This document shows positions 311-21,969 of a stretch of DNA of 64,000 bases, in pieces. The translations under genes and the position numbers were made by a program. This DNA is from a virus. The DNA lies in IMG/VR virus record IMGVR_UViG_3300023074_000001, positions 32,001-96,000 of that record. One strand, 5' to 3'. The notes under the pieces were generated by a model. That model did not search any database. It was not told where the DNA came from and saw only the letters and a list, made by a program, of their open reading frames with translations. Position 1 is the first letter of the stretch; every line of letters starts with the position of its first letter.

Positions 311-611
311 TATGTTTATGCTAATTGCTATTAGTATAGCAATGATTGCAGTATTTACTAATTTTTTCGGTCTAGGTAGTTATCAGCGAGGAACCTGGTA
401 TGAGGTTTCCTACGATGAGCTTGACACGACGATGAAGAAGCTATATGCTCTCAAGGCGTTCAACGATTCTGATGGAATCCCTCAGGAGCAGTTGAAGGTC
501 AAGGCGTTTGTACAGGACGGCCAGGTGTGCTACCTTGTACGGGTACCGAAATGGATTTTCAAGAATGTTGAAATAGAGTTGACCGAAGCCAAAAGACGCG
601 AGCTGATCGGC

Positions 612-640
612 TTGACACCGTAAGATAGCTAGTGTAAAGT
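612..640 (+). promoter_or_regulatory. sigma70/HrdB-type promoter driving the tRNA/Y RNA/ro cluster
   Basis: TTGACA-17 bp-TAAAGT; same architecture recurs dozens of times in the window. Confidence 0.7.
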
Positions 641-645
641 AAAAC

Positions 646-706
646 TTGTCAGGGCGGCAAGCCTGCTTAAATGTGTATGCCTCGGATCTACGAGCAGCCC
701 TGACAA
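646..706 (+). ncRNA. small structured RNA, unknown
   Basis: Closing stem TTGTCAGGG/CCCTGACAA plus inner CTGCT/AGCAG; starts right after promoter. Confidence 0.45.
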
Positions 707-709
707 CAT

Positions 710-782
710 GGTCTCATCGTCTAGTGGACAAGGACGCAACCCTCTCAAGGTTGAAACGAGAGTTCAATTCTCTCTGGGACTA
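710..782 (+). tRNA. tRNA-Glu(CTC)
   Basis: Cloverleaf; anticodon arm CAACC CT-CTC-AA GGTTG; T loop TTCAATT. Confidence 0.92.
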
Positions 783-786
783 CAAA

Positions 787-872
787 GTTGAGCCGAATAG
801 GTATTGGTTATCTAATTATATGTAAATTAACCGCCCCCTTGGGGCATCTCCAATCCTAAATCCATGTTCAAC
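787..872 (+). ncRNA. Y RNA-like 1 (minimal, no tRNA module)
   Basis: GTTGAGC[C]G...TGTTCAAC bulged-C helix, upper stem TAGGtATTGG/CCAATCCTA, GTTATCT motif; upstream of ro. Confidence 0.75.
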
Positions 873-883
873 CTTTAATTTTA

Positions 884-949
884 GTAGAGTCGGAGTTAGT
901 GGTTTATCTTACTTACAAATAAAAATACCACTAACAAAACATATTCTAC
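884..949 (+). ncRNA. Y RNA-like 2 (minimal)
   Basis: GTAGAGT[C]G...TATTCTAC helix, upper stem GTTAGTGGT/ACCACTAAC, TTATCT motif. Confidence 0.75.
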
Positions 950-956
950 GTATTTT

Positions 957-1029
957 GCCGCCGTAGCTTAGAGGACAAAGCAGCTGCACGACATGCAGAA
1001 GAACGTGGGTTCAACTCCTACCGGCAGCA
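957..1029 (+). tRNA. tRNA-Val(GAC), atypical anticodon loop (C33)
   Basis: Cloverleaf GCCGCCG..CGGCAGC; loop AC-GAC-AT. Confidence 0.7.
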
Positions 1030-1034
1030 CAAGC

Positions 1035-1157
1035 AGTGAGTCGAACAGAAAACGATTATCTTACTATTATCAGGAAACTGCTGGGTTCAACTCCCAGGAC
1101 ATCCACGAGGGTGTTGCAGGCTTGCCTTAAACTCGTCTTCTACCCTTTATATTCACT
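1035..1157 (+). ncRNA. Y RNA-like 3 (YrlA-like, T arm plus closed acceptor-like hairpin)
   Basis: AGTGAGT[C]G...TATTCACT helix; CTGGG TTCAACT CCCAG T arm followed by GACATCC/GGGTGTT hairpin. Confidence 0.78.
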
Positions 1158-1181
1158 ACTTACTTTCATGGAGGCTTTAAC

Positions 1182-1376
1182 TTGTCTTTCAAGGAAACCA
1201 AGGCACTTAAGGCTGCTGCTCAGAAGCTTGCTGCGGCGAGAAAAGAATTGTTTGCGGCGCAAAAAGCAAAGTCTAGAGATGCAGCTCTAATCAAAGAGCT
1301 TGAGAAGCAAGTAGCTAATCTCACCTATTTCCATAGTCATCTTTTTTACGATGCTAATAAGGATGCGAGACCGTAA
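1182..1376 (+). CDS. small basic helical protein
   Basis: GGAGG SD, TTG start. Confidence 0.55.
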   Translation: MSFKETKALKAAAQKLAAARKELFAAQKAKSRDAALIKELEKQVANLTYFHSHLFYDANKDARP

Positions 1377-1520
1377 TTTATGGCAGACAACAAAGAAACA
1401 CGTGCAAAAGTAAGTAAAGCAGCTAATAGCTTAACACGAGCTAAAGAAGCTAAGCTAGATCAATCTGATGCTCGTGAAAAGCTTAGAAAAGCTATTGCTG
1501 AGTACGACAAGTAATACTTA

Positions 1521-1639
1521 TTGGCGAGTCGTAGTTGAATGGTTAACAGTCCAAACCGCTTGCGTGGGTTCGATTCCCACTTCGTAGTTTAATGGCAGAA
1601 CAGCGGTCATCTTCCGTTTAACGATCCTATATTCGCCAA
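1521..1639 (+). ncRNA. Y RNA-like 4 (YrlA-like, permuted T arm then D arm)
   Basis: TTGGCGAGT[C]G...TATTCGCCAA helix; GTGGG TTCGATT CCCAC followed by TA GTTT AATGGCA GAAC. Confidence 0.82.
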
Positions 1640-1643
1640 TCAT

Positions 1644-1732
1644 GCTCTTGCTAGGGACCAACGAAGTCGCGTTCGTTGAGCGTAGACCGGCGGGTTTATG
1701 ATGGGAAGGTTCGAATCCTTCCAAGGGCACCA
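1644..1732 (+). ncRNA. tRNA-like RNA with acceptor stem, T arm and encoded CCA but non-canonical D/anticodon region
   Basis: GCTCTTG/CAAGGGC-A-CCA; GAAGG TTCGAAT CCTTC. Confidence 0.65.
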
Positions 1733-1779
1733 TTCGTAATATTCAATTTTCATTGAGTCGAAAGAGAGGCTATAAGCCC

Positions 1780-3381
1780 ATGTCAGCACTAAAGAAGTAT
1801 TCAACTAATTCATTCTCCCAGACTGAGAAGGCTCGTACCGATCAGGTGCAGAACTCAGCCGGTGGCTATGTTTTCAAGGTAAACGATCTCAAGCGTCTTG
1901 AGCGATTCCTTATCATCGGAACTGATGGTGGAACCTACTATGTCGGTGAGCGCGACCTTACTAAGGCTAACGTTGATTTTATTCGTGAGATGATTGCTAA
2001 GTCTCCTGAGACTGTTCTACACACCGTTGTAGATGTTTCAGATAAGGGTCGTGCATATCGTAACGACGCAGCTATCTTTGTGCTTGCGCTTATGCTTAAC
2101 GATGCTCCTGCTGATTTCAAGGCTCAGATAGTTGAGGCTGTACCGGCTGTTGCTCGTATCGCTACTCACGTATTTCAGCTTGCTGCTTACATCGAGAACC
2201 TTGGTGGTTGGGGCCGTGCAAAGCGTCGTGCTATTGCTAAGTGGTTTGAGTCAAAGTCAGCGGATCAGCTTGCATACCAGGCTGTAAAGTACCGTCAGCG
2301 TGATGGTTGGACCATGAAGGATCTTATGCGTCTGAGCCACGTTAAGGGTGTAGATGAGCGTGTAGGCGGGTTCATTCTTGGTCGTGAGACTAACCCTGGT
2401 GGGGACATCATTGATGGTTTCCAGACCATGCAGCTTGCGCTTTCGCCTTCTGAGGTAATTTCTACTCTTGGGCGTTACCCTAATCTGCCTTGGGAGACTA
2501 TTCCTACTCAGTTCCTCAAGGATGCTGAGGTTTGGAAGACTCTATTTGCGAATGGTCAGCTTAAGGGGCAGGCTCTAGTACGTAACATCACTAGGCTTTC
2601 GCGTATTGGCGCATTCAACGATATGGTATTCGCTCGTGAGGTAGCTGACAAGCTTGTTGATTCTGACATGATTGCGAAGACTCGTCTTCACCCAATCCAG
2701 TATCTTCTGGCTTCTGTTACTCACCGTACGGGGCAGATGGATCGTAATGGTTATGGTAGTTTCTATGGTGCAGCTCGTAAGCGTGACTGGGAGATCGTTC
2801 CAGTAATTGCTGATGCGCTGGATGCAGGATTCTACCAGTCATTTAAGTCTATCGTTCCGGCAAACAAGCGTACTATGCTTGGCCTGGATATTTCAGGTTC
2901 TATGGCCGCTACTGCTCTAGGAATTGATTTGAGCTGTGCTCAGGTTTCTGCTGCTATGGCTATGGTCACAGCTCGTACTGAGCCATACACCATGATTCGT
3001 GGATTCTCTACGCAGTTCAAGGATCTAGGCATTACTCCTAATCAGGATTTTGCTACAGTTATGAGTAAGATTAGTAACCAGAACTTTGGTGGTACTGACT
3101 GCGCACAACCTATGATTTGGGCAATGGAGAACAAGGTTGAAGTTGATACCTTTGCTGTCTTTACCGACTCAGAAACTTGGGCTGGTAGGACGCAGCCATT
3201 CCAAGCATTGAAGCGATACCATCAGAAGATGGGTATTGATGCTAAGCTGGCAGTTTTCGGTGTTGCTAGCACGGAGTTCACTATTGCAGATCCTAGTGAT
3301 TCTGCGGGAATGATGGACTTCTGCGGTTTTGATTCCAACGCAGCTAGTGTGTTTGCTGACTTCTCAGCAGGTCGTCTGTAA
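1780..3381 (+). CDS. rsr: Ro60-related RNA-binding protein (TROVE + vWA)
   Basis: NSAGGYVF, LERFLIIGTDGGTYY, KYRQRDGW, DISGSM MIDAS, GGTDC, FTDSETW motifs; ATG 1780 after GAGAGG. Confidence 0.96.
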   Translation: MSALKKYSTNSFSQTEKARTDQVQNSAGGYVFKVNDLKRLERFLIIGTDGGTYYVGERDLTKANVDFIREMIAKSPETVLHTVVDVSDKGRAYRNDAAIFVLALMLNDAPADFKAQIVEAVPAVARIATHVFQLAAYIENLGGWGRAKRRAIAKWFESKSADQLAYQAVKYRQRDGWTMKDLMRLSHVKGVDERVGGFILGRETNPGGDIIDGFQTMQLALSPSEVISTLGRYPNLPWETIPTQFLKDAEVWKTLFANGQLKGQALVRNITRLSRIGAFNDMVFAREVADKLVDSDMIAKTRLHPIQYLLASVTHRTGQMDRNGYGSFYGAARKRDWEIVPVIADALDAGFYQSFKSIVPANKRTMLGLDISGSMAATALGIDLSCAQVSAAMAMVTARTEPYTMIRGFSTQFKDLGITPNQDFATVMSKISNQNFGGTDCAQPMIWAMENKVEVDTFAVFTDSETWAGRTQPFQALKRYHQKMGIDAKLAVFGVASTEFTIADPSDSAGMMDFCGFDSNAASVFADFSAGRL

Positions 3382-3395
3382 GGTTTGACAGTATA

Positions 3396-3442
3396 AGTAG
3401 CGAGTGGTAGAGTTTAGCTCAGTAGCCACTCGCTACTTTTTT
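3396..3442 (+). terminator. intrinsic terminator overlapping next promoter
   Basis: AGTAGCGAGTGG/CCACTCGCTACT hairpin plus T run. Confidence 0.65.
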
Positions 3443-3456
3443 ATCCTACTCATAGA

Positions 3457-3936
3457 TTGAAGATTGATTTGAAGCTTCTCATTGTTCTACTAATTCTTGC
3501 TGCACTAGGCTATCTGGTGTATCGAGGTTATAAGAAGTATCTTGCTCCATTCAAGAAGCCTAAGCAAAGTATTACTGATTCCTATATTGGAGGTTCCGTG
3601 ACTCAAGTTTCTGGTGTTAAGGATTACGTTCGTCGTCCTACTGAGAACTTCGTTAAGCCGACCTTTCCTGCGCCAAGGCCGAAGCCTTCTTCACCGACAA
3701 ATCCTGGCCCGAAGCGAAGCTCGCAAGCAGAGCGTGAGACTTATGATGTTTATCAGACAGATGAAAACTTTGAGTATCCTTCTTCTCCAGACACAAGTAA
3801 TGCGTACGTCTGGGAAGATAGCTCTACTAGTCGCAGTACTGAATCTACGTCGTATTACTCGCCTCCTGCTGAGGCAAGCCCGCCAAGTTCCAGCACCCCA
3901 GATACACCTTCTACGTCCAGTAGTTCTGACTACTGA
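3457..3936 (+). CDS. membrane-anchored Ser/Pro-rich protein
   Basis: N-terminal TM helix, low-complexity tail. Confidence 0.65.
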   Translation: MKIDLKLLIVLLILAALGYLVYRGYKKYLAPFKKPKQSITDSYIGGSVTQVSGVKDYVRRPTENFVKPTFPAPRPKPSSPTNPGPKRSSQAERETYDVYQTDENFEYPSSPDTSNAYVWEDSSTSRSTESTSYYSPPAEASPPSSSTPDTPSTSSSSDY

Positions 3937-4041
3937 AGGCTTGACAGCTTAGCGAGACTAGGCTAGGATTAACCAAGTAAGCCGGTTGTGGTACTTGCGA
4001 ATAACAGCCCGTAAGGATAAAAGTAATTTGGCTGTTAGCCT

Positions 4042-4116
4042 GGAGTAGTCGTCTAACAGGACTAGGACACCAGACTTTCAATCTGGGTAATGCGGGTTCG
4101 AATCCCGTCTACTCTA
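4042..4116 (+). tRNA. tRNA-Glu(TTC)
   Basis: Cloverleaf; CCAGA CT-TTC-AA TCTGG. Confidence 0.93.
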
Positions 4117-4148
4117 CTTTAAATTTTATTGTATAATGGAGATTTGCT

Positions 4149-4382
4149 ATGTCTACTCAAGTACTAGAGAGGCCAGTAGAAACATCAGATTTTAATAAGT
4201 TTTGTCATGTGGTTTGTGCGTGCAGTCCTAAGCTTTCATTGTGCGGGGCATACAAGCCAATACAATGTGGCCTGGCTATTGTTGATAGCAGAGCCATAAA
4301 AACTTGTCCTAAGTGCAAGAAAGATTTCTGTCAGGATTGCATAGATCTTTTGCCATACGAATGTGTACGCTGTGGTCGCTAG
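4149..4382 (+). CDS. Cys-rich putative zinc-binding protein
   Basis: Multiple CxxC; GGAG SD. Confidence 0.65.
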   Translation: MSTQVLERPVETSDFNKFCHVVCACSPKLSLCGAYKPIQCGLAIVDSRAIKTCPKCKKDFCQDCIDLLPYECVRCGR

Positions 4383-21380: not shown

Positions 21381-21969
21381 CTAAGCCGGGGAAACGTTCT
21401 GAGCCAGCTAAGGCTGGAAGAGTATCTAATCAATTTGTCGAGAAGCTGGAAAAATACGGAGCTTCAGAGAAGTTACTGAAAAAGCTAAAGGAATCTGAGG
21501 AAAAATGATGGAAGAAATAGCTACCGTAAAGCTTAATTACGTTGAATTATGTACCCTCCTAGACTCAGGTACCGTTGAGCATGGTTCGGCGCTGTACGTA
21601 AAACTGAGGGCCGCTAGAGATGCCTTCACGCAGACTCCGAAGGTTTATGGAAACGGTCTAGGTATTAGGATGCAGAAGGTGACTCAGTGAGCAAACCTGA
21701 CTCGGGGGATGTCGTTCCTGAAGGAAGCAACTGGTCTCAGACAGGAAACAAGATACCTATGACTGCCGAGAAAATAATTAGAGTCTTTAGTAGAGCGAAG
21801 AAGGGTAAAATTAAATGAGCAAACCGGATCCAGATGAGGTATATCGAAAGGGCACTAGTTGTGAGCCATGCGGCGGCATAGGAACTGTTGCTGTAAGGAC
21901 TAAATCTAAGCTGACTAACTATGCTAGTTACAAATGCAGCAAGTGTAACGGTAAAGGAAAATATATTAA

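What the first reader, a model, noticed from the sequence alone, without database searches (positions are those of the whole stretch)
1740..1804. Ro-binding helix encloses the ro ribosome-binding site: candidate autoregulatory operator
Seen: TTGAGT[C]GAA (1753) and TATTCAA (1798-1804) reproduce the Y RNA helix and bracket the SD (GAGAGG) and ATG 1780. A second TATTCAA at 1740-1746 can pair with the same 5' strand as a mutually exclusive hairpin. Inference: free Ro represses its own translation and Y RNAs titrate it, giving a two-state switch. I know of no description of this.
Basis: partly seen in the sequence, partly recalled or inferred. Interest (0 to 1): 0.82.

Follow-up and report, generated by a model that had tools for sequence, protein, structure and literature searches.

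The report
Y-RNA-stem mimic hairpin before phage Ro60
Just before the ribosome-binding site of this soil phage's Ro60 gene sits a small hairpin that copies, with its two strands in swapped order, the stem by which Ro60 is thought to grip its partner Y RNAs; the same hairpin precedes Ro60 genes of many phages and bacteria, so Ro60 probably limits its own synthesis through it, though this is untested.

Summary
Of the two pairings it proposed, the "alternative" local hairpin (1740-1760) is the real, conserved element. It consists of the Y-RNA 3' strand, a 4-nt loop and the Y-RNA 5' strand with bulged C1759 and a closing G1760·U1740 pair. It ends 3 nt before the SD GAGAGG.

My detector finds this strand-swapped mini hairpin within 45 nt of the start in 73 of 178 distinct ro/rsr leaders, phage and bacterial. 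With a stem of at least 5 pairs it is in 38/99 viral and 30/79 bacterial leaders. Controls give 6/879 and 18/711 coding windows, and 0/99 and 0/79 on the reverse strand. The stem covaries.

The RBS-enclosing helix with the coding TATTCAA (1798-1804) is within chance (P about 0.13). Its predicted pairing probability is 0.002, and it is not conserved family-wide.

Best reading, with binding and repression inferred and not shown: a translational operator that mimics the Ro-binding site, with Y RNAs competing for Ro. No description was found in six literature searches. This scan reached the same reading before on other genomes.

The parts
1740..1760 (+). Strand-swapped mini Y-stem hairpin. 3' strand 1740-1747, loop 1748-1751, 5' strand 1752-1760 with bulged C1759 and closing G1760.U1740.
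   Evidence: pair probabilities 0.74-0.98 for the 7 stem pairs. Homologous hairpins with covariation. A near relative in soil contigs changes only loop position 1749 and turns A1752-U1747 into G.U.
1759..1762 (+). CGAA following the stem. The same motif follows the 5' strand of the window's Y RNAs.
   Evidence: After the closing G, position +1 is A or G in 54 of 57 distinct hairpins and position +2 is A in 47 of 57. The 'CGAA motif' name comes from PMC12135203.
1764..1769 (+). Shine-Dalgarno GAGAGG, 3 nt after the hairpin and 10 nt before ATG.
   Evidence: In one search, by a counter whose zero point I did not verify to within 1-2 nt, an SD-like 4-mer starts within a few nt of the closing G in 47 of 57 distinct hairpins and is absent in 7.
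1768..1778 (+). Small hairpin GGCT/AGCC with loop ATA that pairs the last two G of the SD.
   Evidence: part of the MFE or centroid. Identical in L009 and L012. In L003 the loop differs but the stem is kept. Not analysed further.
1780..3381 (+). ro (Ro60/Rsr homologue, 533 aa).
1798..1804 (+). TATTCAA in codons 7-9 (Tyr-Ser-Thr).
787..1640 (+). Array of four Y-RNA-like genes (about 787-872, 884-949, 1035-1157, 1520-1640), interspersed with tRNA-Val and two small ORFs.
1643..1732 (+). tRNA-like cloverleaf with T arm and encoded CCA, between the last Y RNA and the hairpin.
612..640 (+). Only promoter-like site upstream on this strand (TTGACA, 17 nt, TAAAGT). It suggests ro is co-transcribed with the tRNA/Y RNA array.
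   Evidence: consensus match only.
3421..3445 (+). Terminator-like hairpin plus T run after ro.

Best explanation
The ro mRNA leader carries a 21-nt hairpin (1740-1760) that is a strand-swapped miniature of the Ro-binding stem of Y RNAs. It has the same G-R-G-Y core, bulged C and closing G.U (or G-C) pair, but the 3' strand comes first and a short loop caps the end where a Y RNA has its termini. The 5' strand runs straight into CGAA and the Shine-Dalgarno sequence.

Shown: the structure is conserved, covaries and keeps its place next to the SD in about 40% of sampled ro/rsr genes of phages and several bacterial phyla.

Inferred: Ro60 that is not occupied by Y RNAs binds this hairpin on its own mRNA. 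Being a 60-kDa ring a few nucleotides from the SD, it keeps the 30S subunit off, and Y RNAs compete for the same site. Ro synthesis would then follow the supply of Y RNA. This is autogenous translational control by target mimicry. The downstream TATTCAA is not needed for this.
For: (1) The window hairpin has 7 pairs, a bulged C and G.U. The stem pairing probability is 0.74-0.98.

(2) It has the same core as the four Y RNAs upstream.

(3) The same swapped hairpin sits directly before the SD in several groups: L012, L023, L027, L006, L021; 6 of 6 sampled Streptomyces Stanwilliamsviridae phages, where the upstream neighbour is a protein gene; Microbacterium phage Zooman and Sinorhizobium phage Phosso.

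(4) Survey: the hairpin is present in 73 of 178 distinct leaders. With at least 5 pairs the counts are 38/99 viral and 30/79 bacterial leaders. Controls give 6/879 and 18/711 coding windows, 0/99 and 0/79 on the reverse strand, and 16/1980 and 28/1580 in shuffles.

(5) A test that does not select on pairing: of RGYCG sites at -45..-1, 78% (n=54) and 83% (n=36) have an upstream partner of at least 5 pairs, against 6.3% (n=648) and 9.3% (n=1130) in coding sequence.

(6) Covariation. Stem pair 5, which the detector does not require, is paired in 53 of 56 hairpins, with A-U 15, C-G 13, U-A 10, G-C 14. The core pairs show 12 double changes against 1.6 in shuffles.

(7) The closing G lies 8-21 nt from the start in 50 of 57 hairpins.

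(8) A covariance model found 35 hits at E<=1 in 367 kb. All are on the + strand, and 30 end within 17 nt of the ro start. Most were training sequences.

(9) A near relative changes only the loop and one A-U pair to G.U.

[quoted passage not shown] A phage Ro60 binds a compact single-hairpin RNA with a CGAA motif taken from the region upstream of its own gene (PMC12135203, sections 8 and 17).
Against: No binding, footprint, reporter or transcript data exist for any of these hairpins. No RNA run holds this phage.

About 60% of sampled leaders lack the hairpin by my detector. Most of these instead have a full Y-type stem upstream: 56 of 105 end within 70 nt of the start, 32 lie farther away and 17 have none. 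That detector is rough. So the element is not universal, and experimentally studied mycobacterial-type loci appear to be of the other kind.

The swapped topology has not been shown to bind Ro. In the nearest-neighbour model the bulged-C/G.U closing pair is not stable (probability 0.001). The window's MFE prefers an alternative in which CGAA pairs with UUCG at 1733-1736.

The covariance model did not reach E<=1 on the window's own AU-rich variant.

Hits are phylogenetically related, so the counts overstate the number of independent events.
Confidence: 0.55

Rival explanations
1. The 5' strand (1753-1760) alternates between the upstream TATTCAA (hairpin, translation on) and the coding TATTCAA at 1798-1804. 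The second pairing is a Y-like helix that encloses SD and ATG, and Ro stabilises it to shut translation off: a two-state switch.
For: Both partners exist. All four swapped-hairpin loci of the window's own clade have an own-CDS partner of at least 6 pairs. The window's is at +19. In L012, L023 and L027 it is at +36. Individual shuffle P values are 0.126, 0.013, 0.087 and 0.137. The near relative keeps both strands unchanged.
Against: The window's helix is within chance (P 0.13 from shuffles, 0.09 from tiles). Its pairing probability is 0.002. The best structure with it enforced has -3.4 kcal/mol, against an MFE of -9.1.

Family-wide, 6 of 73 loci have such a partner, against 3.9% for cross-locus pairings. 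By eye, Jada has none in its first 90 nt.

The +36 partner is the conserved Thr/Ala-Gln codon pair. It is equally present in relatives without the hairpin: L003, L009, L013, L014 and L018. The position differs between the window and its relatives. L012, L023 and L027 are not independent of each other.
Confidence: 0.1
2. The hairpin is a 5'-end or processing element of the ro mRNA and not a repressor site. It marks the boundary where the tRNA/Y RNA precursor is cut, and it protects the new mRNA 5' end from 5'-dependent RNases, with or without Ro bound. If Ro-dependent, this would be positive control.
For: No promoter-like site lies between 640 and ro, so ro is probably cut out of a long precursor. 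The hairpin would then lie about 7 nt from a 5' end made at the CCA of the tRNA-like element. In Zooman and in L116 the hairpin lies shortly after a promoter-like site, near the predicted 5' end.
Against: A generic protective stem-loop would not need the invariant G-R-G-Y-C-G core, the bulged C and the closing pair shared with Y RNAs. Nor would it need a fixed distance to the SD. The two roles are not exclusive.
Confidence: 0.15
3. The hairpin is a minimal Y RNA in its own right. It is released from the leader and loaded onto Ro, possibly in cis on the nascent protein, and it has no effect on translation.
For: The authors of PMC12135203 classify a compact one-hairpin CGAA RNA from upstream of a phage Ro60 gene as a Y-RNA-like molecule and show binding. 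Bacterial Y RNAs are processed from precursors upstream of rsr (PMC4201824).
Against: It has no effector module, tRNA-like or other. Rfam YrlA gives nothing at 1740-1760 or at the leader hairpins of 14 other loci. The constant abutment to the SD is unexplained by this model.
Confidence: 0.1
4. It is a functionless remnant of Y RNA gene duplication and decay next to ro.
For: Y RNA arrays are dynamic. The closest relatives (L008, L009, 75-76% Ro identity) have a full Y RNA where the window has the hairpin.
Against: The hairpin shows compensatory changes, a kept position and a presence in distant phyla, and it occurs in phages where no Y RNA is adjacent. In most loci that have both, the hairpin's stem sequence differs from that of the neighbouring Y RNA.
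Confidence: 0.05

Closest known systems
Ro60-binding lower stem of Y RNAs (bacterial and phage YrlA/YrlB/Yrn types; Chen et al. 2014, PMC4201824, abstract and passages read)
   Same: The helix core, with a bulged C and an adjoining closing pair followed by CGAA/CGGA, is the same. It is encoded beside ro and shares its core with the four Y RNAs of this window.
   Different: Strand order is swapped: 3' strand, short loop, 5' strand. There are no paired termini, no internal loop and no tRNA-like module. It is part of an mRNA leader and abuts the SD.
Autogenous translational operators by target mimicry (E. coli thrS operator, ribosomal-protein operators such as S8, S15, L1, L20; phage coat-protein and RegA operators). 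Named from general knowledge, not from a call.
   Same: A copy of the protein's main RNA-binding site is placed at its own ribosome-binding site. Competition with the main RNA ligand would set the level.
   Different: No binding or repression is shown here. The protein is Ro60, for which six searches found no such control described.
Yrl2 of Thermus phage phiLo (PMC12135203; abstract, sections 8 and 17, and passages read)
   Same: It is a compact RNA with one hairpin and a CGAA motif, taken from the non-coding region upstream of a phage Ro60 gene. That Ro60 binds it in EMSA and cryo-EM.
   Different: The authors treat it as a free Y-RNA-like molecule defined by prediction. I could not obtain its sequence, strand order or distance to the SD (figures and supplements are not available here), so identity with the present element is open.

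Membership tests
Y RNA (YrlA-type) | Long stem formed by pairing of the 5' and 3' termini | tested here: not met
   The strands are in swapped order and joined by a 4-nt loop.
Y RNA (YrlA-type) | Conserved Ro-binding helix with a bulged C | tested here: met
   The GAGT[C]G / TATTC core is identical to the window's Y RNAs. The core is invariant or covarying in 48 aligned hairpins.
Y RNA (YrlA-type) | Effector module (tRNA-like domain or large internal loop) | tested here: not met
   21 nt in all. There is no Rfam YrlA match at 1740-1760.
Y RNA (YrlA-type) | Bound by Ro60 in vivo | not testable with these tools
   No RNA or CLIP data. No RNA holder is listed.
Autogenous translational operator by target mimicry | Copy of the protein's RNA-binding site in its own mRNA | tested here: met
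Autogenous translational operator by target mimicry | Site overlaps or abuts the ribosome-binding site | tested here: met
   The hairpin ends 3 nt before GAGAGG. The closing G lies 8-21 nt from the start in 50 of 57 distinct hairpins.
Autogenous translational operator by target mimicry | The protein binds the site and represses its own translation | not testable with these tools
   Needs EMSA, toeprint or reporter assays.
   P 0.128 (shuffles) and 0.093 (tiles). Pair probability 0.002.
   6 of 73 own-CDS against 3.9% cross-locus. But 4 of 4 in the window's clade have one, at two different positions, and one of these is a conserved codon pair.
Intrinsic terminator | GC-rich stem followed by a T run | tested here: not met
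   No terminator-like site at 1740-1770. The stem is followed by CGAAAGAGAGG.

The most novel reading that the evidence does not exclude
Ro60 synthesis in many phages and bacteria is set by a strand-swapped Y-RNA-stem operator on the ro/rsr mRNA. Free Ro represses its own translation and Y RNAs act as anti-repressors by titration, which couples Ro to Y RNA stoichiometrically. In this window's clade the operator may in addition toggle with a partner in the first codons.
Probability: 0.5. Interest if true: 0.8.

Novelty: new member of a known kind. Interest (0 to 1): 0.7.

Why it matters
How cells and phages set the level of Ro60 relative to its Y RNAs is not known. A conserved copy of the Ro-binding helix at the ribosome-binding site offers a simple, directly testable feedback. 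It would add Ro60 to the classic list of RNA-binding proteins that control themselves by target mimicry.

It would also give a minimal natural Ro-binding RNA of about 20 nt for structural work. It would explain why Y RNA genes and ro are so tightly linked. For annotation, the hairpin is a useful marker of the true ro start.

Tried and rejected
Rfam. A gathering-threshold search of the whole window found only tRNAs. An E-value search of 600-4200 found nothing at the hairpin, only a weak YrlA/tRNA signal inside Y RNA 1520-1640. An E-value search of 14 other loci found no family at the leader hairpins.

Close DNA relatives among named phages. Megablast found only short coding matches.

Expression. 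No RNA holder is listed for this DNA. Contigs of four soil runs were laid. They gave one near relative over 1500-1807 and nothing on transcripts.

'Shared strand' switch. I tested whether the hairpin's 3' strand is also the 3' strand of the last Y RNA. Overlap was flagged 7 times (one per Y-stem candidate) among 28 loci that have both elements, so it is not the general design.

Other operator sites. A whole-genome scan gave 7 hits of at least 6 pairs. None but the ro leader has a convincing SD and start.

Covariance model R1. It is dominated by GC-rich hairpins and did not score the window's AU-rich variant at E<=1. I did not run it on the bacterial set.

phiLo Yrl2. I could not get its sequence or position. 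The paper gives no accession in the text I read, and figures and supplements are not available.

Sim et al. 2020 review (PMC10870794). Not held. Subscription papers on Ro/Y RNA were not searchable, so 'not in print' holds only for searches.

Denominators. Three of the 178 leaders (L015, L024, L025) are 5'-truncated matches whose real start is off the contig, and they count as negatives. At least L047 and L060 have the hairpin but were missed because of a second G.U. The long-range Y-stem detector is rough, especially in GC-rich genomes.

Full report
**What is there.** The window is bases 32001-96000 of a 135,654-bp IMG/VR phage record with terminal repeats. The ORF from ATG 1780 to 3381 is a Ro60 homologue: vWA_Ro60 2e-60, TROVE 1.6e-35. 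Its nearest named relatives are Streptomyces phages at up to about 60% identity.

Upstream lie four Y-RNA-like genes whose terminal stems share the core GAG(T/C)[C]G paired with (T/C)AT(A/G)TTC. A tRNA-like cloverleaf ending in CCA follows at 1643-1732. The only promoter-like site on this strand is at 612-640, and a terminator-like site follows ro at 3421-3437. So ro is probably co-transcribed with the array.

**Which pairing is real.** The 5' strand can pair with either TATTCAA. Folding puts it with the upstream copy. That hairpin has seven pairs (1741-1747 with 1752-1758) and a 4-nt loop, with pair probabilities of 0.74-0.98. The downstream helix has a probability of about 0.002, and the best structure with it enforced has -3.4 kcal/mol, against an MFE of -9.1. 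With C1759 bulged and G1760 on U1740, the local hairpin reproduces the whole Y-stem core in swapped strand order.

A partner as good as the coding TATTCAA turns up in 12.8% of 5000 shuffles of the downstream region and in 9.3% of 576 tiles of the window. The 7-mer is common in this phage: 19 found against 10.75 expected.

**Relatives.** Leaders of ro homologues fall into two kinds.

- In the first kind, a complete Y RNA ends 4-25 nt before the SD and nothing Y-like follows. Examples are L002, L003, L004, L005, L008, L009, L013, L014, L017 and L018. L008 and L009, the closest at 75-76% identity, belong here.
- In the second kind, the SD is preceded by the same swapped hairpin as in the window, with different stem letters. 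Examples are L027, L023, L012, L021 and L006.
- All six sampled Streptomyces Stanwilliamsviridae phages have the hairpin, for example TGCCCAGAATGGGCCG in Jada. There the upstream neighbour is a protein gene. Jada still has a YrlA-like RNA with a stem of the same type about 1.9 kb upstream.
- Microbacterium phage Zooman and the Sinorhizobium jumbo phage Phosso also have it.
- Gordonia and Mycobacterium phages, and two mycobacterial genomes, are of the first kind.

**Survey and controls.** With a Ro alignment I fetched 80 viral and 80 bacterial loci and estimated starts. The estimates agreed with all 26 known starts. I then scanned -45..-1 for an RGY[C]G strand with an upstream partner.

- 73 of 178 distinct leaders are positive. 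They include Armatimonadota, Nocardia and other actinomycetes, Myxococcota and a Chloroflexia MAG.
- With at least 5 stem pairs the hairpin is in 38/99 viral and 30/79 bacterial leaders. Controls give 6/879 and 18/711 coding windows, 0/99 and 0/79 on the reverse strand, and 16/1980 and 28/1580 in shuffles.
- Without selecting on pairing, 78% (n=54) and 83% (n=36) of leader RGYCG sites have a partner of at least 5 pairs, against 6.3% (n=648) and 9.3% (n=1130) in coding sequence.
- Among 57 distinct hairpins, the fifth stem pair, which the detector does not require, is paired in 53 of 56, with all four Watson-Crick types.
- The five core pairs are 100% paired in 48 aligned sequences, with 12 double changes against 1.6 in shuffles. 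That alignment was selected for pairing, so it leans that way.
- The closing G lies 8-21 nt from the start in 50 of 57 hairpins, and the SD usually begins within a few nucleotides of it.
- A covariance model gave 35 hits at E<=1 in 367 kb. All are on the + strand and 30 end within 17 nt of the ro start, though most were training sequences.
- In this phage's whole genome, the ro leader hairpin is the longest of only 7 hits.
- A near relative in soil-metagenome contigs changes only loop base 1749 and turns A1752-U1747 into G.U. It leaves both TATTCAA copies and the 5' strand untouched.

**The enclosing helix in relatives.** An own-CDS partner of at least 6 pairs exists in 6 of 73 hairpin loci, against 3.9% for cross-locus pairings. 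The exception is the window's own clade. The window (+19) and L012, L023 and L027 (+36) all have one, with shuffle P values of 0.126, 0.013, 0.087 and 0.137.

The +36 partner is the conserved Thr/Ala-Gln codon pair, which relatives without the hairpin also carry (L003, L009, L013, L014, L018). The position also differs from the window's. I therefore treat the switch as possible but unsupported.

**Mechanism.** Published work states that the bulged conserved helix is what Xenopus Ro60 and Deinococcus Rsr need on Y RNAs (PMC4201824, passages). It also shows that a Thermus phage Ro60 binds a compact one-hairpin CGAA RNA taken from upstream of its own gene (PMC12135203, sections 8 and 17). I could not learn that RNA's position relative to the SD.

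The most economical reading is an operator. Ro60 not occupied by Y RNA binds the leader hairpin and blocks the adjacent SD, and Y RNAs compete for Ro. Binding and repression are inference.

They are weighed in their own sections.

**Novelty.** Six full-text searches found no description of Ro60/Rsr autoregulation or of an rsr leader element. Rfam 15 has no family there. Subscription papers and supplements could not be searched.

Within this scan, the same reading was reached before on at least six other genomes. My tests here were made independently of those notes and agree with them. What this window adds is a direct test of the two competing pairings.

Noticed in passing
window 1768-1778: A second small hairpin (GGCT/AGCC stem, loop ATA) pairs the last two G of the SD. 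The stem is kept in L003 with another loop and is identical in L009 and L012. It may add to control of initiation.
   Followed up: partly
window 1182-1376 and 1380-1514: Two small Lys/Ala-rich ORFs (64 and 44 aa, no Pfam match) sit inside the Y RNA array. Similar small ORFs lie at the same place in L002 and L003.
   Followed up: no
window 787-1640; L002-L018: The Y RNAs of this clade share a (G/C)G(A/T)TTATCT motif shortly after the 5' strand. Its role is unknown.
   Followed up: no
window 1807-1889: In near-relative soil contigs, identity is about 96% over 1500-1807. A stretch of the same length (81 nt) is then diverged before similarity resumes. This is a mosaic joint inside the first 40 codons of ro.
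   Followed up: no
window 1753: the ORF listing starts the ro frame at TTG 1753, inside the hairpin. Conserved N-termini show that ATG 1780 is the start.
   Followed up: yes
L127, L129, L138, L147, L163, L166 (upstream of rsr): Bacterial Y-like RNAs upstream of rsr give sub-threshold matches (27-37 bits, cut-off 38) to the nematode family RF01656, ceN72-3_ceN74-2.
   Followed up: no
L155, L178, L183: Myxococcota rsr genes are flanked on both sides by clusters of tRNA genes, much as in the phage.
   Followed up: no
window 21608-21630: A Y-core-like hairpin in normal strand order (TGAGGGCCGCT with GATGCCTTCA, 13 nt apart) was found in the genome scan. Its context was not examined.
   Followed up: no
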